Source: an uncultured virus (IMG/VR IMGVR_UViG_3300034280_000588)
Taxonomy: Duplodnaviria; Heunggongvirae; Uroviricota; Caudoviricetes
Virus record (IMG/VR): IMGVR_UViG_3300034280_000588
DNA length: 64,000 nt
Strand: one strand, 5' to 3'
In this document: positions 1 to 58,028 of the stretch, piece by piece
Numbering within the stretch: position 1 is the stretch's first letter
Layout: each line of letters begins with the position of its first letter
Program-made: the position numbers and the translations under genes
Notes under the pieces: generated by a model
Seen by the model: only the letters and a program-made list of their open reading frames with translations
Told to the model about the DNA's origin: nothing
Databases searched by the model: none

Positions 1-19
1 CCCTAAGACCTGTTTATAT

Positions 20-120
20 AGTCAGGTAGTGGATATGTAAACGGGCTCAAGCTCGATAAGGCAAAATGGTATGCTTCTCTTTACGAGACCACATTACGGG
101 TTCGAATCCTGTCCTGACTA
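20..120 (+). ncRNA. tRNA-like element 1 (acceptor stem and T-arm intact, non-canonical core)
   Basis: AGTCAGG (20-26) pairs with CCTGACT (113-119). T-arm is ACGGG-TTCGAAT-CCTGT (96-112). No recognisable D-arm or anticodon arm. Confidence 0.55.
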
Positions 121-135
121 CTAAAAATTAAATTA

Positions 136-276
136 ATGAAAATATACTATTTTATTTGTAGTTTATTAATGATTGGTATGATATCTTATTCATTCCAAGA
201 ATATCCTATGTTAGTAGGTTTTTTATGTTTTGGAATAGGTATAGGATATATGAGAGAAAAGAATAAAGTCAGCTAA
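136..276 (+). CDS. small hydrophobic membrane protein (46 aa), not in ORF track
   Basis: Translated by hand: MKIYYFICSLLMIGMISYSFQEYPMLVGFLCFGIGIGYMREKNKVS. Two hydrophobic stretches and an A-rich leader. Confidence 0.55.
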   Translation: MKIYYFICSLLMIGMISYSFQEYPMLVGFLCFGIGIGYMREKNKVS

Positions 277-333
277 CCAAGCACAATGAATGATAAATTC
301 GGAGTATGGTGACAGCAGGAAAGACTGCAACAT

Positions 334-420
334 AGTCAGGTGGCGGAATTGGTAGACGCTATACTTAAGCAGTTGAAGCTGGGCAATTCAACAATACAGG
401 TTCGAATCCTGTCCTGACTA
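334..420 (+). tRNA. tRNA-like element 2 / degenerate class II (Leu-like) tRNA
   Basis: Acceptor AGTCAGG/CCTGACT, Leu-type D-arm GCGGAATTGGTAGACGC, long hairpin GTTGAA..TTCAAC and T-arm ACAGG-TTCGAAT-CCTGT. The anticodon stem pairs only 2-3 bp. Confidence 0.6.
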
Positions 421-436
421 CTAAAATTTAAACAAC

Positions 437-676
437 ATGAAACAGACATCAATAGAATGGTTAAAAAAAGAACTTGAAGATTATGGTTCACCTTCACATT
501 TAAATTTAGATTGGGAAACATTTGATGAATTGATTGAACAAGCCAAAGAAATGCACAAACAAGAAATAATAGATGCTCACATAGAAGGACAAAGAGTTTT
601 TGACAAGCATGACCATACACAATGGACAACTGACCAGGCAGAACAATACTATCAAGAAACATTTAAAAAAGATTAA
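437..676 (+). CDS. hypothetical phage protein
   Basis: 79-aa ORF with A-rich leader, co-oriented with neighbours. Confidence 0.75.
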   Translation: MKQTSIEWLKKELEDYGSPSHLNLDWETFDELIEQAKEMHKQEIIDAHIEGQRVFDKHDHTQWTTDQAEQYYQETFKKD

Positions 677-678
677 TT

Positions 679-840
679 ATGAAAACATTTGGACTATTCA
701 TGATCGTATGGTTAGTATCTATTCTTATATCATTTAATATATGGAAACATGTTACAATAGAAGAAATGCTTAAAATGGTATTAGCTACACAAATAGCTTA
801 TATAATGTATAAATTAACTAAAGAAGAATCAAAAGATTAA
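679..840 (+). CDS. small membrane protein (53 aa), not in ORF track
   Basis: MKTFGLFMIVWLVSILISFNIWKHVTIEEMLKMVLATQIAYIMYKLTKEESKD fills the gap between adjacent genes with 2-bp spacing. Confidence 0.6.
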   Translation: MKTFGLFMIVWLVSILISFNIWKHVTIEEMLKMVLATQIAYIMYKLTKEESKD

Positions 841-842
841 TT

Positions 843-1181
843 ATGACATTAATGATTGACCCACCATCAGGATGGCAGTATGGGTTTCCTAAACCTATTC
901 CTGAAGATAGAAGAAAGGATGTTCTTGTATGGCTGGTAGAACAAGGTTATCCTCAAAAGCTTATAGATGCGTTTGGAGAGCATTTTTATTGTAGATATTG
1001 GGAAGAACCAAAAGCAATTGTAAAGTTTAATGGGGGTAAAGGAGCCTTGTTATGTTCTAAATGCAGTGCAATTGTAAAGGTAGGGAGTGAGTTTAATGAG
1101 GAAGAATCAAAATATATAAAAGGAGAAATAGATTATTTACCACCGCAGTATTGCAATAAATGTCGTCAAGTTATAAGCTGA
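843..1181 (+). CDS. hypothetical protein with C-terminal Zn-ribbon-like CxxC pairs
   Basis: CSKC and CNKC motifs; N-terminal DPPSGWQYGFPKP segment. Confidence 0.7.
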   Translation: MTLMIDPPSGWQYGFPKPIPEDRRKDVLVWLVEQGYPQKLIDAFGEHFYCRYWEEPKAIVKFNGGKGALLCSKCSAIVKVGSEFNEEESKYIKGEIDYLPPQYCNKCRQVIS

Positions 1182-18750: not shown

Positions 18751-19380
18751 TTAATTGTACACTCTTATTTCTAAAGATGCATTTAATAAAGAACTATCTA
18801 CTAAGTTGTCTTGTCTTGTTGCATATAACGGTTTACTAAACTGGTTATTATTATTAAAATAAGTCACTAATACATCTTCTCTACCACTTGTTCCACTTAC
18901 TATAACAATAAATGTTTTATCTGTAGTGAACAATTCAGAAGAATTAACTGAATACTGTCCAACATTATCATAAGTAAACCAAATATTTCCAATAGTATTT
19001 TCTAACACTGTTGCTACTGGGGCTCCTCCATTAAATTCTAGAATTCCAGTGTCCCAATTATTAGGAGTTGTTCCTGTAGCAACAAAATATGTTCCCACAT
19101 TATTATTTGGTGCTCCTACATTTGTAAAATCAGCTATAGCACTATTGTTATTATAAATAAAATAAGTAACTCCTATTGTTAAATCTCCACCAGAAATACT
19201 ACCTAGACTATTTCCACCATTCTGTGTTAATAAAGCTGTATATACTTTATATGTAGATGACGAATTATTATTAATCTGGTCTACCAGCTGATTTACATGT
19301 GCTATACGAGCTAATGCGTTATCTCCCACTGTTTTACTTAAGTAGGGATCAGGACTTTTGGGTTTAATTTTTTTTATCAT
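18751..19380 (-). CDS. putative virion or tail-associated protein
   Basis: Beta-rich G/N/T composition; YKVYTALLTQ, DFTNVGAP and VLENTIG segments. Confidence 0.55.
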   Translation of the reverse strand: MIKKIKPKSPDPYLSKTVGDNALARIAHVNQLVDQINNNSSSTYKVYTALLTQNGGNSLGSISGGDLTIGVTYFIYNNNSAIADFTNVGAPNNNVGTYFVATGTTPNNWDTGILEFNGGAPVATVLENTIGNIWFTYDNVGQYSVNSSELFTTDKTFIVIVSGTSGREDVLVTYFNNNNQFSKPLYATRQDNLVDSSLLNASLEIRVYN

Positions 19381-19799
19381 ATTTTTGCAAGTTGAAAGTG
19401 CATACCATCTCTACGTCTCCATGTACCACCCCATTCAAATCCTGCGTCTGTAAAACACTTTACAAACCCAGGGGAAAGTCTTGGTCTACAACCAAAGCAG
19501 TTCCATGCTGCATTTACATCAACAGCTATACCCCAGCTGTGGAGACTCATTGTAAGACCAAATCTCTTCCTGCGAATGTTAAAACAACCATCCCATGTCT
19601 TCAGCTCTTTTACAAAACCTCTTGTAATAAGATTTTGTAATGCTGCACTGAGAGGTTTAATTAAGTCTTTATTACAGAATATTCTTTTAGGAATGACTCC
19701 CACTTCTAAATTAGCAGGGACATCCCATGTAGTCATCCACCTATTCTTAAGTGAAGGAGCACCGTATTTCTTATATGCTTGCTTACTGGTTACCATCAT
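19377..19799 (-). CDS. endolysin, M15-family peptidase
   Basis: SLHSWGIAVD (SxHxxGxAxD) and WGGTW..DGMHFQ. Confidence 0.9.
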   Translation of the reverse strand: MMVTSKQAYKKYGAPSLKNRWMTTWDVPANLEVGVIPKRIFCNKDLIKPLSAALQNLITRGFVKELKTWDGCFNIRRKRFGLTMSLHSWGIAVDVNAAWNCFGCRPRLSPGFVKCFTDAGFEWGGTWRRRDGMHFQLAKI

Positions 19800-20218
19800 T
19801 TCGTTATTATAATCGTAACCAGTGCTATCAAACCCCCGGTTAAGAGAATATCTGTAAATTTTTTCTTTGTCTTATATTTCTTAAAGTCTTTAGAAAGGGT
19901 GGTGTAGTCTTTATTACATTCTGCTAAAAGAGAACTAAGAGCCTCTTTAGCAACCTTATCATTACCAATCTGTTCTAAATAATAAGATTCTTTTAACTGT
20001 TGTTTAGAAATGATGCTGTCTTTTACAGTGATCATCTTCATGTTTTCATTCACCTCAGATATTGCTAAACTGAGCATAGCATATGCAGAGTCTCCAGCAA
20101 TGAGGTCTTCTGTAATTTGTTTTGCCACCTCTCCAGGTATGCATACAGACGGAGAAGGCTTTTGAGAAAAGCCTACTAATGAAAAACAGGTGAATATGGT
20201 GATTAAAATAAGTTTCAT
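19796..20218 (-). CDS. spanin-like protein (signal peptide, coiled coil, C-terminal TM)
   Basis: N-terminal hydrophobic signal, C-terminal ILLTGGLIALVTIII; next to the endolysin. Confidence 0.5.
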   Translation of the reverse strand: MKLILITIFTCFSLVGFSQKPSPSVCIPGEVAKQITEDLIAGDSAYAMLSLAISEVNENMKMITVKDSIISKQQLKESYYLEQIGNDKVAKEALSSLLAECNKDYTTLSKDFKKYKTKKKFTDILLTGGLIALVTIIITK

Positions 20219-20220
20219 AA

Positions 20221-20601
20221 TTAGTAATTGTATCTATTTTTTAAGAAGCTATCTGCTTGATCTACAGAAAATCTTTTAGAAGCATCAATTTTATCATTGT
20301 AATATTCTCTTACAATAACCTTTGTCTTCTTTATATCTTTAATCTTCAGATCAATATCATTAATCCTGTTATTATACTCTTGTGTAACACTATCTAATGT
20401 ATTCTGTTTCTTTACAAGCTCTTGATTCACCAGATTAAGACTATCAATTCTTTGCTTAATCACTTCATTATCAACACGTTTCTCTCTTTTAGTGAAAATA
20501 AACAGAAGTAGATATATAACAAGCAACACCCCAGCAACCACGCCTAATATGGTGAGCAGATTGCTTTTAGGTTTAGGAAAGTAAATATTTGGTGTTTCCA
20601 T
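20221..20601 (-). CDS. i-spanin-like protein (N-terminal TM plus coiled coil)
   Basis: LLTILGVVAGVLLVIYLLLFIF followed by a long heptad helix. Confidence 0.55.
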   Translation of the reverse strand: METPNIYFPKPKSNLLTILGVVAGVLLVIYLLLFIFTKREKRVDNEVIKQRIDSLNLVNQELVKKQNTLDSVTQEYNNRINDIDLKIKDIKKTKVIVREYYNDKIDASKRFSVDQADSFLKNRYNY

Positions 20602-20604
20602 AAA

Positions 20605-20787
20605 TTATGAATGAACTGCTTTTACAACATCTCCTGTTCTATAGACATCTCCATTTTTTAAACCACCTGCTTTTGCTGCTGCATTATTTGCATATTCAGG
20701 AAGATTATTAAATTTTCCAAGAAGTCTTTTTACTTTATTTGTAAGCCAGTCAAGCCTACCAAATATATCTGAAGAAATAGGGTTCAT
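20605..20787 (-). CDS. hypothetical protein
   Basis: 60 aa with YANNAAAKAGGLKNGDVYRTG; tightly packed. Confidence 0.7.
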   Translation of the reverse strand: MNPISSDIFGRLDWLTNKVKRLLGKFNNLPEYANNAAAKAGGLKNGDVYRTGDVVKAVHS

Positions 20788-20788
20788 A

Positions 20789-21091
20789 TTAACTTATTTT
20801 AGGGACATATTTCTTTACATCATATATATCCTCATGTTTAAAGTATAGTTTATCCATATCTGGATTAACATAAGTGATTTTTCTAGGAGCAGAAGGCCCA
20901 TAAAGCATCCTTTCTAGGTTTTCTATCTTGGTTTTGTCTATACTAGACTGAGATAATAGTGCCTTTACATCTGACCTAAGCTCAGATACATCTCGCCATA
21001 TCATCATGGCAAGTATGGTTACAAGGGTTGGAAACAAATACGCCTTAATAGACGTAAGAATGGCAGAGTTTTTTTCGAATTCTCTTGTCAT
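20789..21091 (-). CDS. single-TM protein, holin/antiholin candidate
   Basis: YLFPTLVTILAMMIW followed by a coiled coil; first gene of the lysis block. Confidence 0.5.
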   Translation of the reverse strand: MTREFEKNSAILTSIKAYLFPTLVTILAMMIWRDVSELRSDVKALLSQSSIDKTKIENLERMLYGPSAPRKITYVNPDMDKLYFKHEDIYDVKKYVPKIS

Positions 21092-21138
21092 TTCAAAACC
21101 AATTTTATACCTTTACAAACATTTTTTTCAACAAAAGA

Positions 21139-21256
21139 CTGCTTAACCGAGCTAAAGTCCTGATTTACAATGAGTTATATTGCAGCATCAAGAATAAATG
21201 CAGGTTAATTAGAACTTCTTAACCCAGGACTTGTAAGAGTATAGCTCGGTTAGCAG
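21139..21256 (-). ncRNA. structured RNA with long basal stem and four-way junction
   Basis: 15-bp stem (21139-21154 / 21242-21256, one bulged base), 8-bp stem (21155-21162 / 21225-21232) and three inner hairpins. Confidence 0.65.
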
Positions 21257-21327
21257 GTTCTATTCTACAATATAATATACTAAATTTTTGACAAACCTCC
21301 ATCTATAATCCTTAAATTTTATCAATT

Positions 21328-21732
21328 ATGACCCTCAATCAAGAAGAAGTGTTGGCAGTTGAAGACTTTAAACGGGACTTCAGTGCAAAATTTGGGTATG
21401 TCCCACTAATAACTATAGAAAAAACACCAGAAAAAGTAATGCCTTTAAGTGAGCTTGAAGAATTTTTTAAGCCTTTTATTGCCAGAAAGTATGATAAAAA
21501 GATCACACTAAGCTCCAATCTTAGAGATAGAGAGCTTGTTGAGTATAAGATTATTTATTCCATGATGGCAAAAGAACTAGGATACACCCTCACAGCAATA
21601 GCAAAACATCTTAAAAAAGATCACACAACAATCGTTCATTATAATAAGACTTTTAGAAATCTTATGGCAACATCAGACTTATTTAATGAAAAGTATAACG
21701 AAGTGGTTGTTTATATAAAATCATCTAAATGA
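21328..21732 (+). CDS. DnaA domain IV-like HTH protein
   Basis: TLTAIAKHLKKDHTTIVHY resembles the DnaA C-terminal DHTTV signature. Confidence 0.8.
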   Translation: MTLNQEEVLAVEDFKRDFSAKFGYVPLITIEKTPEKVMPLSELEEFFKPFIARKYDKKITLSSNLRDRELVEYKIIYSMMAKELGYTLTAIAKHLKKDHTTIVHYNKTFRNLMATSDLFNEKYNEVVVYIKSSK

Positions 21733-22310
21733 TGGAAAGCTTAAAAGTATGGAACGTTGCAGTGAAATATAATATGAGTCCAAATCAGTTATATTTTCTT
21801 GATTGCTGCAGATATAAAATTAAACCCTCCAAATTAATTAATGAGGAGGCTGAAAAGATGATATGTATACAAAAAGGCTTTATTGACCTTGATTGCCATC
21901 TTTCTATTACAGCAACTCAAATGTTGGCTGAATATGACACCTTCCTTGATAAAACAAAGAAGAAGGTGGCTAAAGAAGTGCTTGGAGAAAACTTTATGGA
22001 AAAGGTAAACACCTATAGACAACTCTTTCCAAAAATAAGATTTCCTTCTGGTTCACTAGCCAGACAATCAACCAATGAACTAAAGGACAAGTTTATATGG
22101 TTCTTTAAAACATTCCCAGAATATGATTGGGAATTAGTGTTTGACGCAACAGACTATTATTTATATTTAAAAAAACAAGTTGATTACCAATATGCCGTAA
22201 CAAGTAGCTATTTTATAAAAAAGACAGAAACATTAACTAAAGAAACAAAATCCATTCTTGCTGATTATTGTCAGCAACTATTGGATGATCCCAATTTATT
22301 ATCTTCTTAA
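21729..22310 (+). CDS. hypothetical protein, possible replication initiator or helicase loader
   Basis: 193 aa, between the DnaA-IV-like gene and DnaB. Confidence 0.55.
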   Translation: MMESLKVWNVAVKYNMSPNQLYFLDCCRYKIKPSKLINEEAEKMICIQKGFIDLDCHLSITATQMLAEYDTFLDKTKKKVAKEVLGENFMEKVNTYRQLFPKIRFPSGSLARQSTNELKDKFIWFFKTFPEYDWELVFDATDYYLYLKKQVDYQYAVTSSYFIKKTETLTKETKSILADYCQQLLDDPNLLSS

Positions 22311-34950: not shown

Positions 34951-34963
34951 TCCCCCTTTTTTT
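34934..34963. terminator. bidirectional intrinsic terminator
   Basis: AAAAA-GGGGGA-AACTAA-TCCCCC-TTTTTTT at the convergent junction. Confidence 0.85.
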
Positions 34964-37900
34964 ATTTAATATAGAATGATTTTACTTGATCATAACTATC
35001 CCATTTATTTAAAACATTTAAAGCTGGGATCACATCTTTCCATTCTTTCCAAACTTTAAGATCACCTTTGTGTGTTCCTCTTTCATAATAATTTTTTTCA
35101 TAAGGAGGTATTGGTAAACTTAAACTTTTTTCTACGGCTTGGCCAAAATCTTTTAAAGTTGTTAAAATAGCAAATGGAGATTTTGCAATCTGATATTGTT
35201 CTTCAATACCCACAAGCGGCATCATTGTAGAAATTTCTTTAACTTGTCTACTTTGTTGATAAGCTAAGAAATTAAGCCATCTTTTTATAAATTTATCTTC
35301 TGGTGGAATACCATCTGCAATTCCACGAACAATCCCATACAATGCAAAGCTTGCTGCAAGAAATGCAAGTTCAGCTAAGTTTTTATACATATTTTTTATT
35401 TGAACAGAATCCATGTCTTTCCATCCTGTTCTTAATTTTTCTATAAATGTGCCTTCTGCTTCTTTAACATACTTTAAAAAACTTAATACGGTTACGTACC
35501 TACCTTCAACTGTTCCTAAATTTTCATCTATATATCTTTCTTTAAATCTTGATTTGTAAGCAGGATAAATCCATTTATGAAATTGTGCAGCAAGTTGCCC
35601 TATCCAATGATCTTGTATAACCATTCGATCTTGAAAAGCATAGTTACCGTGGATTTGTTTATTTACTTCTAAAATATAATTAATTAAATCATATCTTTCT
35701 TTATCTGACATTTCAAAACCATCTTTTAATTTTAACTCACCGGTATTTGGATTAAAATCAAAAGCATCATAGACACTTAAAGTTTCACCAGTTTTGGAAT
35801 TTTTAAGTGTTCTTGTCATTGTTATAGCTACACCAGTCTTACTTTGAACATTAAATTCACCACCTTCCTGTAAAAGATAAGCCCAACTCATAAAATCTAC
35901 CTTACCCTGATCTTTTTGATAATGCCTCACCATTCTAAAATATTCAACTATAGCTTCATATTTACTTTTTGCTTTTTTTCCAATTTGATACCCATCACTG
36001 TGCTCACCCAATCCTCTAAATATATTTGGCAAATAATCTTTATTATATTCCCCAACAGCTCTATTTGCAGCAGGTCTATCATAATATAAAGAACCCGCTG
36101 TTTCAATAGAATTGTTTATTCTACCCATTACATAGTTGTTTATATTACCAAATATATTAAAACCTACACCTTTTAAAGATGTTAGATTTTGAATACGTTT
36201 AGAAATAAGAGCCATTGTTGTTCTGTTAAATTCCTCATTATTATAATAAACCATTTTAAACCATTTATTAAGCCTTTTGATCGCAAATACATTTTCTTTT
36301 CTTTTTACAACAGCCTTTCCTTCACTTTCTTTATTTAATTTAGAACCTTTGCGTATAAGTTTATTACCTAATGAATCAATTTCATAATAGTCCCTGTCTT
36401 CCATTATTTTAGCAATAGCTTGTAAATCTGATTCTATATTGCTCATTATTTCAAAATTTTCAGCCATTGCTGCAAATTGAATAAGATTTTCTACCAAATC
36501 ACCTTCAATTTCTTCCACCTTAATTTTACTTTCCTCTATCTTAATATACTCTTTAAGTTTATTTCTTTTTTCTAAAAATTCTTTTTGGGATATTTTACCT
36601 TCAAGTTTTTTTTGTTTAAAAGCTTCTAGCTCTTTTTTGAGATATTCTACTCTTTTTTCATTTTGCAATTTACCAACATAAAGTATGGGAAGACCATTTT
36701 CAACTTGACCAAGTTCATCAACTATTCTTTGATTCGTGTATATTTCTGTACTAAAAAAATCTTTTAAAGATTTGGCTACAGCTTTAGTAAAACTACCTCC
36801 ATTTTTTTTAAGTGTTTCCATAAACTTTCCTCTCACTCTTCCCACCTTTCCTCTTTGAGCAGAAGCTACATCCTGAGGAAGCTTTTCTAACTGATTCTGA
36901 TACTCTTCCACCCAACCCTTATAAAAATTAGATTGAGCTTTTTCCTGTTCTGTAACAGGATTCATAAGTTTAACATATTTTGGATCTCTAAGATCAGTGC
37001 CATCTTCAGCAATATCTCTAATTTCAACAAATTCACTTTTTACAAACCAATTTGTTTTAAGAGTAACTCTTCCTTGAAATGTTCCGTCAGATTCAAATTG
37101 AGGAGACCAATACGTTGCTTCATTAAAATACTTAAGTCTGAATTGCTCATATTGTTCATCAGTTACGTCTTCTTTCTTTTCCCATTTATAAAACAGCTCA
37201 CCATCTGGTTTACTATATGCAACTAAGTCTTGATACCTATCTCTTATTGTTTTAAAAAAGTCTGTATATTTATGATATTTTCCATCTTTAGCTCCTTGTG
37301 GACCTATTGTTTCAGCATTCATAAATTCTCTATATGCTGTTTTATCTCTAAAAAGAAGGATGTTAAATTGTAAATCTTCATCACTGGCTTTGGTGATATC
37401 TGTTATAGGAATGTATTGTTTTTTATCACCGTTTTTTTCTCGTAATGTATTTTTAATTTCATAATATTTATCATAATATTGACTACCCACTCTACTAACA
37501 TACCTTCCCGTAAACTTGCCATTTTTAAAAACTTTCATAAAATCATAAAAATCTTTAGTAGTTTTTTTAATACCAAAAGCCTTTAATAAATTATTACCAA
37601 GTTGAGCTATTTTAGAAGCCGTACTTTCTGAGTTATCTTTAGCTTTATTAACAGCTGCTTTATATATTTTATCTGCTATTGCAAGAAGAGTGTCTTTGCT
37701 TGTTGCAAGATCTCCAAGATAATAATCTTCAGCAGGAATATCATAAACTTCCTTCATTATTTTATTAAGCTCGTCTTGTGTAAGATCTCTAGATGTATTG
37801 CTTTTTATAACATTTTTAACATAACTTTCTAAATTGTTATCAATGCTTTCTTTAACATCATCTAAAGTATCAATAAGTTTAACGAGCATAAGTTGTTGTT

Positions 37901-39530
37901 CTTTACTACCAACACCTTTAGCATTAATTATACCTCTATATGATTCTATATACTTATCCACTTCAATAAGTAATGAGGCATAATTTGGTTTTTCCATATT
38001 TTTTGGATCAGATATTTCTTTATGATAATCAGTGATTTCTTGCATTGCATAATTTAAAAAAGCACCATAGGCAAGTGATGGTCTATCATTTCTAAGATCT
38101 GAACCCATCATTGCCATGAGTTCATTTATCTTATCAATCATAACATCTTTTTCTATAAATGTTTTTCCTTTACGTATTTTTTCTAAATACTTTTTACGAG
38201 CTTCAAATGTGTTAATTACCTTTTTACTCTCATCATACATTTGAGTAAACTTATCATCCCCATATATTTCAATTTCTGGTTTACTATCTTCTTCACTTAA
38301 GAAATCAGGATCATTTACAGGATTATCGATTCCTAATTCTTTTTTGAGCTCATCAAGTCTATTTCTAGGTTCTAAATCTGTTGGTATAAGTTTATTTACA
38401 TAAGTTTGATTCATACTAATAGAATGCTGTTCCTCACCCTCCCACTCAATATCTTTTATTTTTTTATCAACATCCAAATCTAACTTTAGATGTAAAGTGT
38501 GAAGTTCAACAACATCAAAACCTTTAAGCTCAATAAGTTTTTTATATGCCGCTAATTGAATACCATGTTGCTGTCTTGTAGATAAACTTTGCCCTTTAAA
38601 AACAGAACCTTCTGCATCATCTTTTATTAAATATTTTTTATCATAATTTTCTGATTTAACACTATTTTTAGAAGCTTTTAAATCTACAATTTTTATTTTA
38701 CCATCAGGTGTTATTACCAAAAGATCAAGTGAGCCAGCTATTTTAGAATATTTATCACCAATTGCGGCCTGTGTTACTATAATAGAACCATCTTTAGTAA
38801 GCATATTTATATACACTTGAAATAGCCCATAAGCTGTTTTTAATTTATCATGAGGAATATTGTCAATGTCTTTTACAGCATCTTCAAATTTTTGACCAAG
38901 AATAACACCCTGTAAAAGTTTATCAAATGAAGTTCCATATTCTCTATTAATAGCAAACTCATCATTCATAAGCTTACCTTTGATACCGGTAGTAACAGAA
39001 GTGTAGGTTTCACCATCTTCATCTACATAAACATGTTCACTAGGTTCAAGAACTACAGGATTATCAGAATTTTCTATAAGATCGTTTACAATACGTTTTT
39101 GTAATGCGTTTCCTTTTTTACCAGCTTTATTAAGAAATTCTTTTCTTTCAGGGTCCAGTACAAATGCCACACTGGTACTAACAAACTTTTTTGTAGGATC
39201 ATCTAACAAATCATTATTAAATATATTAGATTTGGGTTCACCATTAGCATCAGCAAAACTGCCAAACATGCTATTTTTTTTAGTAAAGTATTCTTGATAC
39301 TCTGAGCTATATGCAATACTCCATAAACCAACCGCTATTTCTTCTGGAGATTCATTAAGCAGTGTCCCATCATCAAGACGATTTTTTAAATAAGGAATTT
39401 GATCAAGGTATTTTTTTACACCTTTTTCTTTTACTTTATTAAGAAGTTCTTTATAAAGTATTGAATCTTCACCATTAGGGGCTAAAACCCTATCCACCTT
39501 ACCATCTTTTCTATATAATTGACAGGCCAT
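34962..39530 (-). CDS. giant putative virion cargo/ejection protein with a PD-(D/E)XK nuclease-like domain
   Basis: 1522 aa, adjacent to the RNAP; AGSLDLL..IVDLKAS..QLAAY near the N-terminus. Confidence 0.7.
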   Translation of the reverse strand: MACQLYRKDGKVDRVLAPNGEDSILYKELLNKVKEKGVKKYLDQIPYLKNRLDDGTLLNESPEEIAVGLWSIAYSSEYQEYFTKKNSMFGSFADANGEPKSNIFNNDLLDDPTKKFVSTSVAFVLDPERKEFLNKAGKKGNALQKRIVNDLIENSDNPVVLEPSEHVYVDEDGETYTSVTTGIKGKLMNDEFAINREYGTSFDKLLQGVILGQKFEDAVKDIDNIPHDKLKTAYGLFQVYINMLTKDGSIIVTQAAIGDKYSKIAGSLDLLVITPDGKIKIVDLKASKNSVKSENYDKKYLIKDDAEGSVFKGQSLSTRQQHGIQLAAYKKLIELKGFDVVELHTLHLKLDLDVDKKIKDIEWEGEEQHSISMNQTYVNKLIPTDLEPRNRLDELKKELGIDNPVNDPDFLSEEDSKPEIEIYGDDKFTQMYDESKKVINTFEARKKYLEKIRKGKTFIEKDVMIDKINELMAMMGSDLRNDRPSLAYGAFLNYAMQEITDYHKEISDPKNMEKPNYASLLIEVDKYIESYRGIINAKGVGSKEQQLMLVKLIDTLDDVKESIDNNLESYVKNVIKSNTSRDLTQDELNKIMKEVYDIPAEDYYLGDLATSKDTLLAIADKIYKAAVNKAKDNSESTASKIAQLGNNLLKAFGIKKTTKDFYDFMKVFKNGKFTGRYVSRVGSQYYDKYYEIKNTLREKNGDKKQYIPITDITKASDEDLQFNILLFRDKTAYREFMNAETIGPQGAKDGKYHKYTDFFKTIRDRYQDLVAYSKPDGELFYKWEKKEDVTDEQYEQFRLKYFNEATYWSPQFESDGTFQGRVTLKTNWFVKSEFVEIRDIAEDGTDLRDPKYVKLMNPVTEQEKAQSNFYKGWVEEYQNQLEKLPQDVASAQRGKVGRVRGKFMETLKKNGGSFTKAVAKSLKDFFSTEIYTNQRIVDELGQVENGLPILYVGKLQNEKRVEYLKKELEAFKQKKLEGKISQKEFLEKRNKLKEYIKIEESKIKVEEIEGDLVENLIQFAAMAENFEIMSNIESDLQAIAKIMEDRDYYEIDSLGNKLIRKGSKLNKESEGKAVVKRKENVFAIKRLNKWFKMVYYNNEEFNRTTMALISKRIQNLTSLKGVGFNIFGNINNYVMGRINNSIETAGSLYYDRPAANRAVGEYNKDYLPNIFRGLGEHSDGYQIGKKAKSKYEAIVEYFRMVRHYQKDQGKVDFMSWAYLLQEGGEFNVQSKTGVAITMTRTLKNSKTGETLSVYDAFDFNPNTGELKLKDGFEMSDKERYDLINYILEVNKQIHGNYAFQDRMVIQDHWIGQLAAQFHKWIYPAYKSRFKERYIDENLGTVEGRYVTVLSFLKYVKEAEGTFIEKLRTGWKDMDSVQIKNMYKNLAELAFLAASFALYGIVRGIADGIPPEDKFIKRWLNFLAYQQSRQVKEISTMMPLVGIEEQYQIAKSPFAILTTLKDFGQAVEKSLSLPIPPYEKNYYERGTHKGDLKVWKEWKDVIPALNVLNKWDSYDQVKSFYIK

Positions 39531-39552: not shown

Positions 39553-42500
39553 TTAGGGTTGTGCGCATCTATCATTTAAAGGATTATCATCATCTAATTT
39601 TGTATCATCTGATTTGATACTACCAAATCCCATCAATCTTTCAAACTCTTTTCTTTTTTCCATATCCGTTATGCCAAGTTTTTCTTCTTTTGACCCAACT
39701 GCTGGTACATTTTTACTAGCTTGAGATGGTTTTTCATTATCACCCATTCCTAATGCTGCAAGAAATCTATTTCTTAAAGCGGTATCCGTAACACCTAATT
39801 CTTTAGCTTTTTCTTCAGTAAGGTTTTCATCAACAATAGGCGTTTCTCCTAATGTTTCATTTCCTTTTATTTGAGGAGCTGATGATGTAATGTCATATCC
39901 TAACATATAAACTAATTGTCCTGGGGTTTTTACAGTTTTTTTCGCATCATCTGGTATAGCATCCCAGACATCACCTACAAATTTAAAGGATTTACTAGCG
40001 GTATCAAAAGTAAAAGTAATGCCTTCTCTAGCGAGTATTTCTTTTGGCGTACCAGTCACATTTTTAGTAGCAGCGGTTGCTATTTCTTTTTTTTGTGTAA
40101 CAGATGTTTCTCCTGGTTTAACAAATCCTCTGTTAATCATCCACATCTCCTCTTTTTCAGGATCGCTAAAAGCTCTTTCATAATAAGGATTATAAGAAGA
40201 AGGATTGGTTGTAAGCTTTCTATATCTAGGAAGTTTAGCAGTATCAGGAATTGGGTCAAAAACCTCTCCTGCCTTAAAAGTTTTTGAAGAACCCTTTCTT
40301 TCTATTTTTTGGTATACAGCTTTTACACCAGAAGCAACAGTTTCCCCAGGTTGAATCATTCTTTTAGGGGAACCTTTAGGTTGTTTTTGTGCTTTAGTAA
40401 CCGATTTAAGAACAAAGAAAGTGTTTTCAAAATATTTTTTTCCTTCTGGTTTTATACTTTGTTTTATAATATATGGAAAAACAACCTCACCTTTTTTATT
40501 AGTATAAAAACCTTTAGCCCTTAAAGAATCCATATTTTTAGCAAATCTTTTCTTTTCATCAGGTGAATACTTAAAACTATCTGCCTTGGCTTTAGCTGCC
40601 TCTTCTTCTTTTTTAATCCATTCTTTTTTTCCTTCTTCATCTAATTGAGAAAACTTTTCAGTTTCTTCAGCCAACATGGTATAATAATCAGCATCATCCA
40701 TCCATGTTATTTCAGATTCTTCTTCTTCAGTGAAAGCCTTTTGTTTTTCTTTTATACGAGCACCATTGAAAATATCAATTTTTATTTTATCACCGTCTAT
40801 TACAACAGATTTGGGTTCAAAGCCATCTACATTTTTATTTCCTACATCTTTGAACTTAGGTTCAGCAAATAGAGTCATACTTCTAACATAATATCCATTT
40901 CCAACATGCCTTGTATATATATGCATAAATTCATTAAACAAATCATTAGCTGTTAACCCAAATACTTTTTTATACTCTTCATCTATATTTTTTGTTGTGA
41001 CCATGTTTAATTTCAAAACATCATTAGCTATTCCTGTACTTTGCATCAAATCTGTAAACATAAAGTTAGGAATAAACTTAATAAAACTATTACTTCTAAA
41101 CTGACCACCATCTTTTACCAACAGATAATTAAAAAGAGCATTAGCCATGTCTCTACCGTTTCTACCATTGCCATCAAAATCAATATCAGATTGATAGATT
41201 TCTATAAAACTATCTCTTAATTTTTCTATTTGATATTCATTAAGTTTAGCCCAAGTGTTAGATTCTAGTTTATTAAATCCATCTTTATTTTTAGGATTGA
41301 GTCCAGCCTCTCCTTTAGCATTAACTATGGTGGTAGATATTACATTTAAAAATCTTTTGGCAATATAGTTATTTGGAAGTTTTTGTCTAATCGTTCTAAT
41401 AACATCCACTATATCAGAAAACTTGTCTCCTTTTGCTATAGCACCTTCATCATATATAAGGGCATTGGTCATTGTAGATAAAGTTCCTGCTCGCCCTCTA
41501 TCAGCAAGAAATTTTCTATATGCTTTTATAGAAAGATAAGAAATCAAATCTCTTTTCAAATCTACATTAAATTTATCTTTAAGAGATGCTCTTACACTCA
41601 AGTTATCTTTTACAATATTTTCAATACGCTTAAACACACTTGTTCTTTCCAAGAACATGCTTTTGCTGAGATCATTAATTTGATCAGCTATTTTAATCCA
41701 TTTAGAAATATAGTGAGATTGTTTAGATTCATCATAACCCATGAATACTTGACGTAAATCAAATGGTGGAGGAGTTTTTCTACCTTCAGGTATAAATTTC
41801 TCAAAAGCATCATCATTTTGATTTCTTAAACCCAGTTTTTCTATTTTGTTATTAATACCATCATAGTCTTCCCAAGATGTACCAAGTCCTTTAACAAGCT
41901 TAAGTACTTGAGCAACATCAGAAAAGTATTTAGTTTGATTTGATATCCCTATAAAATCTTCTAATACAGAAGCCTGATATATAGCACTACTCCCATTATT
42001 TTTAATATTGGATACCATTATATCATCTGTAAGATCTTCTTTTACATAGTCATCTCCAGCTAATTTCTTATATTTTTCAAAAAGTTTTTTAGCCACTTGA
42101 GACTTGTATATTTTACTTTCCTCATTTGTTTTAATATTATTTGAAGCTATTTTGGTTAGTTCAAAATACTCTCTTACAGCAGGTTGTAACATTAAAAGAA
42201 TAGAAGATTTTAAAGGAACACCTTGAGCTACCATATTAGAAACATAACCAAGAGCCTCCATGTTAAGACCAAGTCTAGCAGCCAAACGTTCTTTAGCATT
42301 ATCTGTCATAGCTGATACTAAAGTAGATATAATGTTTGTTATACGATCTTCACCATCATATTTACCAGTGGCTGCATTATAACTATTAGAATGTGAATAA
42401 CTATCAAATGTGTGACCATTTATTTTAATCTTATACATTTTAACCTTCTTGCCCTTAGCATCTTTAAAAGTGTCTCTAAGGTTAATCTTAAAGTTATTCA

Positions 42501-45500
42501 GTATGGCATAAGTAAGCATTGAGTTAACAGCCGCACCAATGTTTCTAGAACCTTCTTTATTATTTTTAAAAGCTTTGTATTTACCTATAATAGAATCAAC
42601 ATCAACTCCTCCTTCTGTAAGAATATTTTCTATTTCTGTTGGTAATACTTTTTGTCCATTTTCATTTTCTGTAGATAATAAATCAATAAGATTACCAGCT
42701 ACATTTGGATCTAATAAATTGGTAAGAGCAGTTAAGGACGCAACTTCAAATGCTATAGATCTGCTTCCACCTGAAATAACATGTTCATTAGTAAGCATCA
42801 ATAACTTCTGCTCTAAAATTCTATTATTAAGAACACCATTATTAAGTTCTTTTTTACTTTTGGCATAATCTAAAACATTAGATGGAAGTTTTAAAGACCC
42901 AAGGGCCTGAGCTATAAGTTTTTGTTCTACACCGTCTAACTTTTTTACTAAATCTTTAAATTCATTTACCCATTTTTTACCCATATCAATAATAGCTTGA
43001 CGTTCGTCCGCTGTTATTTTTCCACCAAGTTCTTCACTAAAATAAACACTTTCAAATATTCTAAACTCATCTAAATCTTTTGTAAGTTTTTTATACTCTT
43101 TATATTTTTTAGATAGTTCTTGATATATAGGATTTGTTTCTTTTAATTCTTGAAGAACATCTCTAAATGCCTTGTTATTATTTGCATTCCAGCGTACATA
43201 TTCTTCAAATTTTCCTTCTTTAGAAGTTTCTGTTCCATAAGGAAAACGTTGACCATCTTTTACATATGTATCATATATGTGCATATACAGTTTATCAATA
43301 TCAAAGTCAGCACCAGATATTTCTATGAGTTCATGGGGAAAGATAGCAGTGGAACCATAATATGCTGGCATAAATCCAACAAGTCTAAGGGCTACAAAGC
43401 TATGTTTTGCCTGTGATGGGATACGTACACCAAACATTTTAGCTATGTGATCAGGAATAGGTTCACCTGGCTTTAAGTTAAAGTACTCAGCATAGTGAGC
43501 TGGCATAATAAACTCTGTATATCTACCTATAATTTTACCATTCTTATCATATTCTGGTACGTTATGTCTAAGATCATCTACATAGATGTCTCCTTTTTTC
43601 ATTTGCTCAAACTTGCGATCAATACTATTATTCCATCTTTTAGCATTCTTTATATATCTATTTGGATTTTGTTTAATAACTCTTTCATCTACCACTGTTC
43701 CAATAGGATTACCCTCTTCATCATAACGTCCAGTAAATATTTTAACTACTTGTTTACCGTAATTGGACATCAAGGCAACAGAGTGACCTGGAGTTTTTTC
43801 ACTCATAACTCCTTTAGAAAAATAAGCTAAAAATAATTGAGTGTATTTGTCAAGAGTGATATTGTTGTTAAGATTATATTTAGGTTTTCCATCTTCTCCT
43901 AAAGAAAAGAAATCAATAAGTTGACTATCTGCTCCTGTAGAACGTAATGTTTCTACAGCTCTTTTTTGAAACTTTTGAAGCTGTGGACTTATTTTACCTT
44001 GGTCCATAGACTTTCCTAGCTCTGAATAAGCACTGTCTATATTAAAGATTTCATCTCTACTTCTTGTATAGTTATTTGTAACACGTTGGTCAACATCACT
44101 AAGATACATTTTTTTAATATCTCCAATTGTTAACTGACTACCATCTTCTTTAGTGCTTCTACCCATAAAAGTAACAGGAGTAGAATCTTCTTGTTCAGAA
44201 AGTATAATCTGTTTGGCCTGACTGGGATCTGTAATTTGTATTTTATTAGAAGGGTTAACCAACTGAAGTCTCCAATAATTTGTATCTTGCTTTACAAAAT
44301 TTTCATCTTTAGCATTTTGAAATCCTAAACTATGATCAAATATATTTCTCTTAATACCCTTACTAGATTCTCTATCTCCAGCAAATACTACAGTATTATT
44401 ATCTTTTTCAAACTTTTCCATTCTTTCCCTAAGTTCATGTAACTCTTCAGAACCAGGAATAGCTACCCACTTACCATTTACTTTCATAGAAGTAAACTCT
44501 TTAGTAAGCATTACAGTGGATGTTTTAATATATTGAAGACCATCAAAATAAACAAGCTTTTTAGAGTTAAACATTGCTTCCATATCTTTTAACCCACCTG
44601 AACCAAAAATTTCTTTTTCAGTGAGTTCTTGACCAGCTTCTAACTTATCAAGAATTTTAGCAATTGCCGGTGTAAGTTGACCTAAACCATGAAGAGTATA
44701 TCTCATACTCTTTACAGTTTGATAAGATTGGGCATCTGCTTTATTTTTTAAACCACCAGCATAGTTAGCTTTAAATTTAGGACTTGTAAAAGTAAGCATG
44801 TAACTTTTAGTAAATGCTTCTGTAATACCAAGTTCAGGAGATGTTACAACAGAATATAAACTGGGCCCACTACCATTAGCACCTCTAGCACGTTTAATAA
44901 TATCAATTTCATCTTTAAATGCTTTAGCCTCATCACCATACAGTATTTGATTAATAGATAATGTATTAATATAATCATTTATTAATATCTGACCAAGATT
45001 ATGTCTGAGATTTCCTGGTTTAATGTTTAACAAATCATTTCTTCTTTCATCTATAACATCCTTACCATTTTCTTTTTTAGTAAAGCCTATCCTTAAAAAA
45101 TCATCAACAAGATTATTTTGAATTTCTTCTTCATTACCTTCTTCAGATTTACTTACTGTAACAACACCAAGGTCATTGGCAAGTTTAACAAAATCTTCAA
45201 TTTGTTTTTCCCAATATTCTTTAATTCTACTATTTATCTTAGTATTTTTAGAAGCAATATCAAAAGCATCATCTAAACTATCTTGTTCTAATTCATCAGC
45301 TAATTCTGTTCCTAGCATATTAGCCATCTTATAGAACTTTAAACCTCTTGGTTTTTTCTTATCTGTTCTTCTACCATCACCATCTACAGCATAATGATAA
45401 CCTTGTATTTCACCATCTGGATATATGCCTGATTTTATTTCAGCTCTTACTTTCTTAATACGATTAAACTCTCTAACTACTTCTTTATTAATAATATTAA

Positions 45501-57900: not shown

Positions 57901-58028
57901 ACTGAGCTTAAACCTTTTTCGTATCTCTCAGTTTTTTTATCTATGACATATTTTAAAAAAGTAAAGTCTGGTGTAAATAACACCGGACTAAAACTTTGAT
58001 CTATGGATGTTTGAAATTGAAGAGGCAT
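54948..58028 (-). CDS. large putative virion cargo/ejection protein
   Basis: 1026 aa, helical, directly upstream of the RNAP as in crAss-like gene order. Confidence 0.6.
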   Translation of the reverse strand: MPLQFQTSIDQSFSPVLFTPDFTFLKYVIDKKTERYEKGLSSVSSSYSALRKQLTDPTNIERRNQYFKNADVQLQKLAGSDFSLQENVNAANSLFEPMITDKAFIYDAYYTAQNKKELEKMESWRNSDDLETRRKFNPQIYDWLKRDLDSLKTGNGNVSNYKVMGRKSWAYINPQEILTKAVKDYGFETFQDIDGGTYITGVKDGVKFKKNYRQFAQEVLLSDPLYTQQSNILGEATYEQLLDQGKAQEKDEKQTILEYATTSYDKYKNRRKEYISQIQGDLEKELKEIQAEKSVIDLSTPDGQQKNAELTSRAMALKQNLGQYNSLKQDYDNEFGGDKKSSEEKRLKYIKSFTENPKEIFSSQYREQDITSFSNIKSASEKITIKKNDAYFSALNSDIEIQKTFASILNAMRKTDISERGQDLKEDIFDWKKADQPITGKLEGTETVTNADGTTTTRAKKSPLTFSGMSASDISRPLNYISTLQSKLALKRADALNNLIGTNGGAVGILENMGVDRNYMPVIRDYFRNYEQATANEQKYTPTEKEKAALRDVYSSLFAFSKQTGNEAALNKLRQLHGVDPGKIDFHELLDLSLSGVGWNALQKPENLQQLMQWQDHKNDLQSMQQQAGMLKKAKDVVMKIAANNPEYRGLIENGQVITKENILKSLDRIPQVKVTGSRFFSDDVVALTPELKNLIAEGYLNGKTVVTIQPGTYQGKTGTWLPGKVTMKMGNNSYYYTLNTDYEKAAFPMNSSDFQAKLTKLYTQIPIDQNVSADSDFKANPIWDVTGDVKDNLVKTIDGPYQHTGIVFSGSGTTATVLDKPEEIDRIRTALKDPKNVTSLKVHSSSSLNNQGLALEVTLRDAKKDETKAEETHWGGTYTFPINLGAGRGIPEILQNFAVINDQNEYLKIRNAGAVHTMYDFTNLGIKVEILPNSTQSDDGKIYITAQKQDPTTGAYLNDNITTELPYNMSTMTYPELKNVIRMNYLVPYLSSRMNYNQQKQRSPAGLSTTDMGQLNNILSSIKIQ

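What the first reader, a model, noticed from the sequence alone, without database searches (positions are those of the whole stretch)
21139..21256. Highly structured ~118-nt RNA at the head of the lysis operon
Seen on the minus strand: CTGCTAACCGAGCTA / 9-nt bulge TACTCTTAC / AAGTCCTG / hairpin GGTTAA..TTAACC / hairpin GCATT..GATGC / hairpin TGCAAT..ATTGTA / CAGGACTT / TAGCTCGGTTAAGCAG, then TCTTTT. That is 23 bp of basal helix capped by a cloverleaf-like four-way junction. Two pairs are G-U on the minus strand but A-C on plus, which favours minus-strand function. It begins about 15 nt after the GTATATTAT motif and ends 47 nt before the first holin-like gene. I recognise no known family. Inference: a new phage ncRNA, or a leader attenuator or riboswitch that times lysis; a 6S-like or tRNA-like decoy is also possible.
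Basis: partly seen in the sequence, partly recalled or inferred. Interest (0 to 1): 0.8.

Follow-up and report, generated by a model that had tools for sequence, protein, structure and literature searches.

The report
Structured leader RNA before phage lysis genes
A 118-base stretch just upstream of a phage's cell-bursting genes folds into a stalk topped by three hairpins, and related uncultured phages keep that fold through matching base changes, so it is probably a new regulatory RNA whose exact job is still unknown.

Summary
Window 21139-21256 (- strand) folds as described (-43.1 kcal/mol, z -7.0). No Rfam family or tRNA matches. It is not chance: 11 further distinct phage or metagenome loci carry a homologous element in the same slot. 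That slot lies between an almost invariant motif (GTATATTATATTGTAG) and the first gene of the lysis cassette. Basal stems differ in sequence but stay paired: 89.6% of cells paired against 70.3% in shuffles, and 31 of 38 pairs changed on both sides. G-U counts and fold energies mildly favour the gene-sense strand. The motif recurs upstream of other genes and in several copies per genome, so it behaves like a phage promoter. About 40 of 66 relatives have a small hairpin with a conserved loop in the slot instead. The element is single-copy per genome and patchy on the tree. A terminator U-tract is good only in this window. Best reading: a new cis-acting leader RNA, most likely acting on transcription elongation. 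This is inferred; no transcript data exist.

The parts
21265..21280 (-). Conserved motif GTATATTATATTGTAG, read as the core of a phage promoter pointing at the element and the lysis genes
   Evidence: Positions TATATTATA and the following-but-one T are invariant in 63 of 63 unique relatives; G-1 in 61 of 63, G11 in 58 of 63; an A-run at -9..-6. One exact copy in the window. A second near copy in the same record lies upstream of another gene. Three copies in one 128-kb contig and copies upstream of other gene types. The sigma-70-type scan lists TTGTCA-16-TATTGT here, not above shuffles. That it is a promoter is inferred.
21292..21295 (-). TTTG, a possible -33-like element 17 nt upstream of TATATTGT
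   Evidence: Read from the sequence. In the profile T is 59 of 63 at -15, with C or G at -13. The Bacteroidetes -33/-7 consensus TTTG/TAnnTTTG is taken from a passage of PMC2483708. Weak and inferred.
21139..21256 (-). The structured element: basal helices P1 and P3 with a four-way junction bearing H1, H2 and H3
   Evidence: MFE -43.1 kcal/mol, z -7.0. Covariance model R1 scores it 101 bits. Covariation across 10 aligned members.
21242..21256 (-). P1 5' strand; pairs with 21139-21154
   Evidence: In the relatives the basal stems differ in sequence but stay complementary. In the fitted alignment, model helices 1 and 2 have 6 of 6 and 7 of 8 pairs changed on both sides, though the window's own P1 is aligned there with a shift.
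21225..21232 (-). P3 5' strand; pairs with 21155-21162 and closes the junction
   Evidence: Helix 3: 7 of 8 pairs changed on both sides, 94% of cells paired.
21203..21224 (-). H1 (6-bp stem, 10-nt loop); present in type A only
   Evidence: Stem and part of the loop are nearly invariant in the five type-A sequences. Absent from type B.
21185..21201 (-). H2 (5-bp stem, pyrimidine-rich loop); shared by types A and B
   Evidence: helix 5: 3 of 5 pairs changed on both sides. Loops read UCCUC, UCUCA, UCCCC, UCUCC in relatives and UAUUCUU here.
21166..21184 (-). H3 (6-bp stem, 7-nt loop), followed by a junction stretch conserved in type A
   Evidence: TGTAAATCAGG is invariant in the five sequences of A2/A4. 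Helix 6: 5 of 5 pairs changed on both sides.
21129..21138 (-). U-rich tail TCTTTTGTTG after P1
   Evidence: 6 T in the first 8 nt here. The other 11 elements have 3-5, mean of all 12 is 4.25, against 2.9 expected. Not a conserved feature.
21103..21107 (-). TAAAA, 11 nt before the ATG; fits the Flavobacterium ribosome-binding consensus
   Evidence: Sequence. Consensus TAAAA 2-12 nt from the start codon, from a passage of PMC2483708. It suggests this stretch is mRNA leader rather than promoter. Inferred.
20789..21091 (-). First downstream gene: 100-aa small membrane protein, holin-like, no family hit
   Evidence: ORF. No Pfam or PHROG hit. Conserved in all relatives (alignment A1). All 12 elements lie directly upstream of a homologue.
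19377..20601 (-). Rest of the lysis cassette: 126-aa Rz-like spanin candidate, a 140-aa protein, and an M15 peptidase endolysin (19377-19799)
   Evidence: PHROG Rz-like spanin E 5.8e-4 (weak); endolysin PHROGs E 2e-7; Pfam Peptidase_M15_4 E 3e-13.
21328..21732 (+). Divergent neighbour: 134-aa protein with a DnaA C-terminal-like helix-turn-helix, heading the replication module
   Evidence: Pfam Bac_DnaA_C E 2.3e-6, below the curated cut-off. Homologues sit divergently beside the motif in 16 of 16 loci fetched with 2.5-kb flanks. DnaB-like helicase, Sak4 and an SSB-like protein follow.

Best explanation
The element is a conserved structured RNA made as the 5' leader of the lysis-cassette transcript in a lineage of uncultured phages. 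These phages have genomes of about 120 kb and probably infect Bacteroidota. Transcription is inferred to start a few bases after the invariant motif GTATATTATATTGTAG. The first 120-130 nt then fold into a long stalk (P1, P3) carrying a branched head (H2 and H3, plus H1 in type A). The mechanism I think most likely is co-transcriptional action in cis on the RNA polymerase that made it, setting how efficiently transcription continues into the lysis and downstream genes. That would resemble the put RNA of phage HK022 or the large leader RNAs of other processive-antitermination systems. I give the general reading (sense-strand leader RNA with a cis-regulatory role) about 0.55. Within it, elongation control is about 0.3, processing or stability about 0.2, and a simple terminator-attenuator about 0.15. 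Shown: the fold, its conservation with compensatory changes, its fixed place between motif and gene, one copy per genome, and no known family. Inferred: that the motif is a promoter, that the element is transcribed at all, and everything about mechanism.
For: Fold: z -7.0. Family: 12 distinct elements, 10 plus L290 and L338, all between the motif and a homologue of the same gene and all in the same orientation. Covariation without structure-guided fitting: 17 of 38 pairs in type A and 5 of 24 in type B changed on both sides. On the model-fitted alignment of 10: 89.6% of cells paired against 70.3 +/- 1.6 in shuffles (0 of 500 as high); 31 of 38 pairs changed on both sides against 16.7; partners slid by 1-3 columns give 30-43% paired. 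The model, trained on 5 sequences, found L290 (E 8e-12) and L338 (E 5e-7). Strand: sense-strand MFE is lower in 9 of 10 elements, with 35 G-U pairs against 20 on the reverse complement; 29 G-U cells against 14 A-C cells. Promoter reading of the motif: invariant core in 63 of 63 unique loci; further copies upstream of other genes, three in one contig, and a second near copy in this record. TAAAA lies 11 nt before the ATG, as expected of a leader. Conserved unpaired bases in type A suggest a specific partner. Position just after a promoter matches putL (passages of PMC9378689).
Against: No transcript evidence exists: no RNA run was listed and no cultured relative is known, so the start site, and transcription of the element itself, are unproven. 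A second promoter-like match (TTGAAA-18-TAAAAT, 21131-21102) lies between the element and the gene; if that is the real lysis promoter, the element is not in the mRNA. The strand bias is modest and the sequences are related. The alignment was fitted to the model, which favours pairing. The family is small, and types A and B share only part of the architecture; L097 and L093 did not reach E <= 1 with the type-A model. The operon shows no excess of internal terminator-like sites (8 against 5.0 +/- 2.4), so a need for antitermination is not shown. About 40 of 66 relatives manage with a small hairpin.
Confidence: 0.55

Rival explanations
1. Promoter-proximal terminator or attenuator, as in lambda PR'-6S-tR'. 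The stalk plus U-run stops most transcripts after about 130 nt, and a phage factor acting at the conserved motif lets polymerase read through to time lysis.
For: In this window the stalk is followed by TCTTTTGT, 6 T of 8. The motif is far more conserved than a plain promoter needs to be, as a factor-loading site would be. Lysis genes come first after it, as in lambda (recalled). The small hairpins in relatives have a GGG/CCC core and a U-rich 3' strand.
Against: The U-tract is not conserved: 11 of 12 elements have only 3-5 T of 8, against 2.9 expected. A branched 120-nt structure is an odd terminator hairpin. No antiterminator protein was recognised among the 35 ORFs scanned, but most had no hit and the rest of the genome was not scanned.
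Confidence: 0.15
2. Processing or stability element. The long stalk is cut by a double-strand-specific RNase (RNase III type) or shields the mRNA, setting the half-life of the lysis message.
For: There are 23 bp of stacked helix here, and 7-9 bp segments stacked to a similar length in relatives. The outermost helix AGAACC/GGTTCT recurs in most members. T7 has RNase III sites between its early promoters and first gene (recalled).
Against: Conserved loops and junction bases in type A are not needed for such a role. The stalk is interrupted by bulges of 7-14 nt. The elements start 0-47 nt after the motif, too far for a 5'-terminal protective hairpin.
Confidence: 0.15
3. Stand-alone small RNA of about 125 nt, made from the motif promoter, ending at the stalk, and acting in trans as a decoy or sponge. 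The lysis genes would have their own promoter just downstream.
For: A promoter-like match lies between element and gene (21131-21102). The compact fold has closed ends. Conserved loops could bind a protein.
Against: That promoter-like match is not above shuffles (5 found against 4.3 +/- 2.7). The same stretch holds TAAAA at ribosome-binding distance. There is no conserved terminator tail. No tRNA, 6S or Y-RNA-type model matches.
Confidence: 0.12
4. DNA-level element. A single-strand or cruciform structure serves replication (origin or priming signal) or a recombinase, beside the replication module.
For: It lies in the divergent region next to a DnaA-domain-IV-like HTH gene and the helicase, primase and polymerase module. 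It also folds with DNA parameters, -24.3 against -23.7 kcal/mol for the two strands.
Against: Most close relatives lack it and carry a 30-nt hairpin instead, which is odd for an essential origin. All 12 copies have the same orientation, so there is no sign of inversion. G-U outnumbers A-C, which favours one strand folding. Six nested helices covary, which protein-binding palindromes do not explain.
Confidence: 0.08
5. Remnant of a small mobile insertion (MITE-like) that landed in the leader and has no function of its own.
For: Presence is patchy on the flanking-gene tree: type A needs 5 changes for 5 rows, as in shuffles. A short conserved outer inverted repeat AGAACC/GGTTCT is present. The inner core is about 80% identical between phages whose flanking protein is about 50% identical.
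Against: There is one copy per genome in 5 of 5 records searched, including a 98%-complete 118-kb genome. It is always in the same slot and orientation. The stems vary while loops are conserved, the reverse of what a transposase-bound element shows. No copies were confirmed in bacterial genomes among 80 screened pattern hits. The tree rests on 101 columns and is poorly resolved.
Confidence: 0.05

Closest known systems
HK022 put RNA (putL, putR), factor-independent antitermination RNA
   Same: A structured RNA encoded just downstream of a phage promoter at the head of a long transcription unit. It acts, in this reading, in cis on the polymerase that made it. putL lies just downstream of PL (passages of PMC9378689).
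   Different: put is about 70 nt with two stem-loops. This element is 100-130 nt with a long stalk and a three- or four-way junction. No sequence likeness was seen. put works in a lambdoid phage of E. coli through the beta-prime zinc-binding domain; nothing of that kind is tested here.
Lambda late leader: PR' promoter, 6S transcript, terminator tR', read through under Q (recalled, no call)
   Same: A single strongly conserved promoter region, a short structured leader, then lysis genes first in the unit.
   Different: A terminator U-tract is not conserved in this family, and no Q-like protein was recognised among the ORFs scanned.
conAn2 of pLS20-type conjugative plasmids and other large leader antitermination RNAs
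   Same: A large RNA element at the start of a long operon that exerts antitermination (abstract of PMC8191782).
   Different: conAn works with a protein partner encoded beside it, in Gram-positive plasmids. No such partner is identified here and no homology is shown.
tRNA and tRNA-like structures
   Same: Four-way junction with three hairpins of 5-6 bp and loops of 7-10 nt.
   Different: ARAGORN finds no tRNA here and the Rfam tRNA model gives no match at E <= 10. The closing helix is extended by a 15-bp stalk. Type B lacks one arm.

Membership tests
Any Rfam 15 family | Match to a curated covariance model | tested here: not met
   Gathering scan of the whole window: only the tRNA at 334-420. 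E <= 10 scan of 20900-21500: four chance-level hits, none on the element. Nine relatives at E <= 1: 0 hits.
tRNA or tmRNA | Cloverleaf recognised by ARAGORN or the Rfam tRNA model | tested here: not met
   ARAGORN finds one tRNA-Leu at 334-421 and nothing at the element. No RF00005 hit at E <= 10.
Intrinsic terminator or attenuator | Stable stem directly followed by a U-tract, conserved in the family | tested here: not met
   The stem is present. The U-tract is 6 of 8 in the window but 3-5 of 8 in the other 11, against 2.9 expected. The consensus scan does not call it (loop limit 3-8).
HK022 put-type antiterminator RNA | Lies just downstream of a promoter at the head of the unit | tested here: inconclusive
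   It lies 8 nt after a conserved promoter-like motif, but no start site is mapped.
HK022 put-type antiterminator RNA | About 70 nt, two stem-loops (PMC9378689 passages) | tested here: not met
   118 nt, stalk plus four-way junction.
HK022 put-type antiterminator RNA | Suppresses pausing and termination by binding RNA polymerase | not testable with these tools
   Needs in vitro transcription or a reporter.
Riboswitch | Conserved aptamer coupled to an alternative-pairing expression platform | tested here: inconclusive
   Type A has conserved junction and loop bases. No alternative pairing or conserved terminator was seen. The slot is filled by a 30-nt hairpin in most relatives. No Rfam riboswitch matches.
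6S RNA | Long rod with a central open-promoter-like bubble; match to 6S models | tested here: not met
   The architecture differs and no Rfam hit was found.
Mobile miniature element (MITE-like) | Several copies at unrelated sites; conserved terminal repeats with a variable interior | tested here: not met
   One copy in each of 5 records. Always the same slot. The interior is conserved and the stems vary.
Invertible promoter segment (inverton) | Segment between inverted repeats found in both orientations | tested here: not met
   All 12 copies have the same orientation relative to the gene. Twelve assemblies are few, so this is weak.

The most novel reading that the evidence does not exclude
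The element, and perhaps also the small conserved-loop hairpin that replaces it in sister phages, is a new class of RNA that binds the RNA polymerase of Bacteroidota. It would make the polymerase resistant to pausing and termination, or otherwise reprogram it. Related phages would then use either a small hairpin or a large self-sufficient RNA in the same slot, as lambda (nut) and HK022 (put) do. Very little is known about such control in this phylum, whose transcription machinery differs from that of E. coli.
Probability: 0.2. Interest if true: 0.8.

Novelty: new variant of a known kind. Interest (0 to 1): 0.55.

Why it matters
Structured leader RNAs that control phage late or lysis genes are known from a handful of model phages of E. 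coli and Gram-positive hosts. This would be a covariation-supported example from uncultured freshwater phages that probably infect Bacteroidota, a phylum with its own promoter and translation-start rules. It comes with a sharply defined 16-nt promoter-like motif and a natural experiment: sister phages carry a small hairpin, a three-way version or a four-way version in the same slot. That gives a small, testable system for asking how these phages time lysis. It also supplies a candidate new RNA family for databases.

Tried and rejected
(1) A scan of viral contigs with the 15-nt P1 arm gave 31 hits, all chance, with only the 15-mer matching.

(2) A scan with a 19-nt H3 core pattern gave 20 hits. 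Eighteen are an unrelated short palindromic hairpin common in other contigs, and only the two known contigs are relatives.

(3) A looser type-A core pattern gave 70 viral hits, with only the three known members confirmed. Eighty were screened with model R1; the best, L392 (21.6 bits), folds weakly and is not a member.

(4) A type-B core pattern found only the 3 known viral members.

(5) The phage DNA collection has no match to 20600-21800. There is no protein match to the holin-like gene, and DNA polymerase is at most 37% identical, so there is no cultured relative.

(6) Sequencing runs: no RNA holder was listed.

(7) The single-protein search with the 134-aa neighbour found no loci, but tblastn on fetched flanks found homologues in 16 of 16.

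(8) The terminator scan of the downstream operon gave 8 against 5.0 +/- 2.4, which is uninformative.

(9) A kissing interaction between the H1 and H3 loops was considered by eye. The loops are conserved rather than covarying and L290 lacks the H3 loop bases, so it was dropped.

(10) Pairing between the H2 loop and the start-codon region was considered by eye and found not to be conserved.

(11) A full-text search for the motif found 6 papers, none relevant.

(12) Earlier notes of this scan by place: none.

Full report
OBSERVATION.
- P1 is a 15-bp basal helix with one bulged A, followed by a 9-nt bulge.
- P3 is an 8-bp helix that closes a four-way junction.
- Three hairpins sit on the junction: H1 (6 bp, 10-nt loop), H2 (5 bp, 7-nt loop) and H3 (6 bp, 7-nt loop).
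- The MFE is -43.1 kcal/mol, against -20.8 +/- 3.2 for 200 dinucleotide-preserving shuffles (z -7.0, none as good).
- The + strand folds less well: -38.0, z -4.8.
- The stated distances hold: about 15 nt from GTATATTAT, and 47 nt to the ATG at 21091.

KNOWN FAMILIES. ARAGORN finds only a tRNA-Leu at 334-421. Rfam at gathering thresholds finds only that tRNA in the window. A permissive scan (E <= 10) of 20900-21500 gives four chance-level hits, none on the element. Nine relatives give nothing at E <= 1.

CONTEXT. The window lies on an 88-kb IMG/VR viral record estimated 72% complete.
- The element sits in a 236-bp divergent intergenic region.
- Leftward (- strand) lie a 100-aa small membrane protein, a 60-aa ORF, a weak Rz-like spanin candidate, a 140-aa protein and an M15 peptidase endolysin. 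Tail-fibre-like genes follow, including a 1653-aa protein with SprB repeats.
- Rightward (+ strand) lie a 134-aa protein with a DnaA C-terminal-like helix-turn-helix (below Pfam's cut-off), a 193-aa protein, a DnaB-like helicase, Sak4, an SSB-like protein, primase, exonuclease and DNA polymerase.
- SprB repeats and the lack of Shine-Dalgarno-like sequences point to a Bacteroidota host. That is an inference.
- No cultured phage is close: the holin-like protein has no match and DNA polymerase is at most 37% identical.

RELATIVES AND THE MOTIF. A profile of the 100-aa protein (A1) fetched 67 viral and 53 metagenome loci.
- Together with the window, 67 spacers were unique. In these, the 15-mer TATATTATATTGTAG with at most 3 mismatches lies upstream of the gene. 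Twenty-one loci had no motif or too little upstream sequence.
- In 63 unique 100-mers, TATATTATA and the T two positions further on are invariant. The preceding G is found in 61 of 63, and an A-run lies at -9..-6.
- The window has one exact copy.
- The same record has a second near copy (1 mismatch in the 14-nt search pattern), upstream of a Cys-rich ORF.
It shows the motif upstream of several other gene types, and three times in one 128-kb contig.
- A single asymmetric A/T-rich site that is invariant across phages with about 50% identical neighbouring proteins, and that is repeated before different genes, behaves like a phage-specific promoter. TTG lies 17 nt upstream of TATATTGT, which loosely fits the Bacteroidetes -33/-7 pattern TTTG/TAnnTTTG (passage of PMC2483708). 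The start site is not mapped.
- The divergent HTH gene and its 193-aa neighbour are conserved beside the motif in 16 of 16 loci with long flanks.

THE FAMILY. Between motif and gene the spacer varies from about 47 to 336 nt. The longest spacers hold an extra small ORF.
- Ten distinct loci carry a large branched element. Type A (window, L125, L085, L106, L170) has P1/P2, P3, H1, H2 and H3. Type B (L109, L188, L097, L093, L157) has P1, P2, an inner helix, H2 and H3, but no H1.
- The motif scan added L290, close to the window, and L338.
- All 12 lie upstream of a homologue of the same gene and in the same orientation.
- In about 40 of 66 relatives the slot instead holds a hairpin of about 30 nt that starts 0-2 nt after the motif. 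Its 5' strand is A-rich, its core is GGG/CCC, its loop is conserved (CAAAnTTA) and its 3' strand is U-rich. Its stem varies in a compensating way.

COVARIATION.
- On plain MAFFT alignments, RNAalifold predicts 38 pairs for type A, 17 of them with both sides changed and the pair kept. For type B it predicts 24 pairs, 5 of them so.
- A covariance model from the five type-A sequences (R1) was run over 94 sources (203 kb). It found the five, plus L290 (E 8e-12), L338 (5e-7), L188 (0.043), L109 (0.1) and L157 (0.38), and nothing else. L097 and L093 did not reach E <= 1.
- On the resulting 10-sequence alignment, 89.6% of 338 cells form standard pairs against 70.3 +/- 1.6 in 500 shuffles (0 as high). 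Thirty-one of 38 pairs have a change on both sides, against 16.7. Sliding the partner by 1-3 columns gives 30-43% paired.
- This alignment was fitted to the model and the sequences are related, so these figures lean towards the structure. The unfitted alignments point the same way.

STRAND.
- The gene-sense strand has the lower MFE in 9 of 10 elements, with 35 G-U pairs against 20 on the reverse complement.
- In the aligned pairs there are 29 G-U cells against 14 A-C cells.
- This is modest support for the - strand of the window. It cannot tell RNA from single-stranded DNA.

TESTS BETWEEN MECHANISMS.
- Terminator: the first 8 nt after the stalk hold 6 T here but 3-5 in the other 11. The mean of all 12 is 4.25 against 2.9 expected, so a canonical U-tract is not a family feature.
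- Need for antitermination: terminator-like sites in the downstream operon are not in excess, 8 against 5.0 +/- 2.4.
- Second promoter: a sigma-70-type match lies between element and gene (21131-21102), but such matches are not above shuffles. The same stretch holds TAAAA 11 nt before the ATG, the reported Flavobacterium ribosome-binding consensus.
- Mobility: there is one copy per genome in 5 of 5 records, including a 98%-complete 118-kb genome, and none was confirmed in bacterial genomes among 80 screened hits. Against that, presence is scattered on the poorly resolved tree of the flanking protein: type A needs 5 changes for 5 rows, type B needs 4. This fits loss or recombination at a module junction.
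- Origin: an essential origin would not be missing from most sister phages.
- Inversion: all copies share one orientation.

READING. The element is most likely a cis-acting structured leader RNA of the lysis transcript. Three things make me favour action on the transcribing polymerase, as with put RNA or conAn2, over a plain terminator or a processing site:
- its position immediately after a promoter-like motif;
- the conserved unpaired bases of type A;
- the fact that sister phages fill the same slot with a small conserved-loop hairpin.

This preference is an inference and I hold it at about 0.3.

It reached a similar conclusion with five relatives. I reached mine before reading it.

Noticed in passing
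window 21265-21280 (-); L069-L188, L259-L338; G000:C1:86306-86319: The 16-nt motif GTATATTATATTGTAG is nearly invariant across more than 60 distinct uncultured phages. It recurs upstream of at least three other gene types, with up to three copies in one 128-kb contig. It is a candidate phage-specific promoter, or a site for the adjacent HTH protein.
   Followed up: partly
L070, L074, L082, L094, L098 and about 35 others, 0-35 nt after the motif: Sister phages carry a small hairpin in place of the large element: an AGAAAAGGG 5' strand, a conserved CAAAnTTA loop and a U-rich 3' strand. Its stem changes are compensating. It may be the functional counterpart of the large element, perhaps a nut-like site, a terminator or a 5' stabiliser.
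   Followed up: partly
window 39553-54942 (-), also 34962-39530, 54948-58028, 58081-62082 (-): A 5129-aa ORF and three other ORFs of 1000-1500 aa sit in a row. They have no PHROG hit apart from an exonuclease-like stretch in the 1522-aa one. Giant virion or injected proteins, possibly a virion RNA polymerase, come to mind, but nothing was tested.
   Followed up: no
window 91-132 and 391-432: A 42-nt direct repeat (93% identical) matches the 3' part of the tRNA-Leu at 334-421, so a second tRNA-like 3' end lies 300 nt upstream. Window positions 1-972 lie off the viral contig that holds the rest.
   Followed up: no
L050, L053, L054, L057, L063, L066-L068: A short palindromic hairpin (AACTnATTG ... 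CAATnAGTT), sometimes in tandem, occurs in unrelated viral contigs. It shares a 19-nt stretch with H3 of the element. This is probably coincidence or a common protein-binding site.
   Followed up: no
L080, L084, L091, L141, L153 and others (spacers of 259-296 nt): Some relatives have an extra small ORF between the small hairpin and the holin-like gene. It encodes a hydrophobic protein of about 60 aa starting MKNWKTT, possibly a second holin or an antiholin.
   Followed up: no
window 21328-21732 (+): The 134-aa protein with a DnaA domain-IV-like HTH is conserved divergently beside the motif in 16 of 16 relatives checked. It could be a replication initiator or the transcription factor that reads the motif.
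   Followed up: partly
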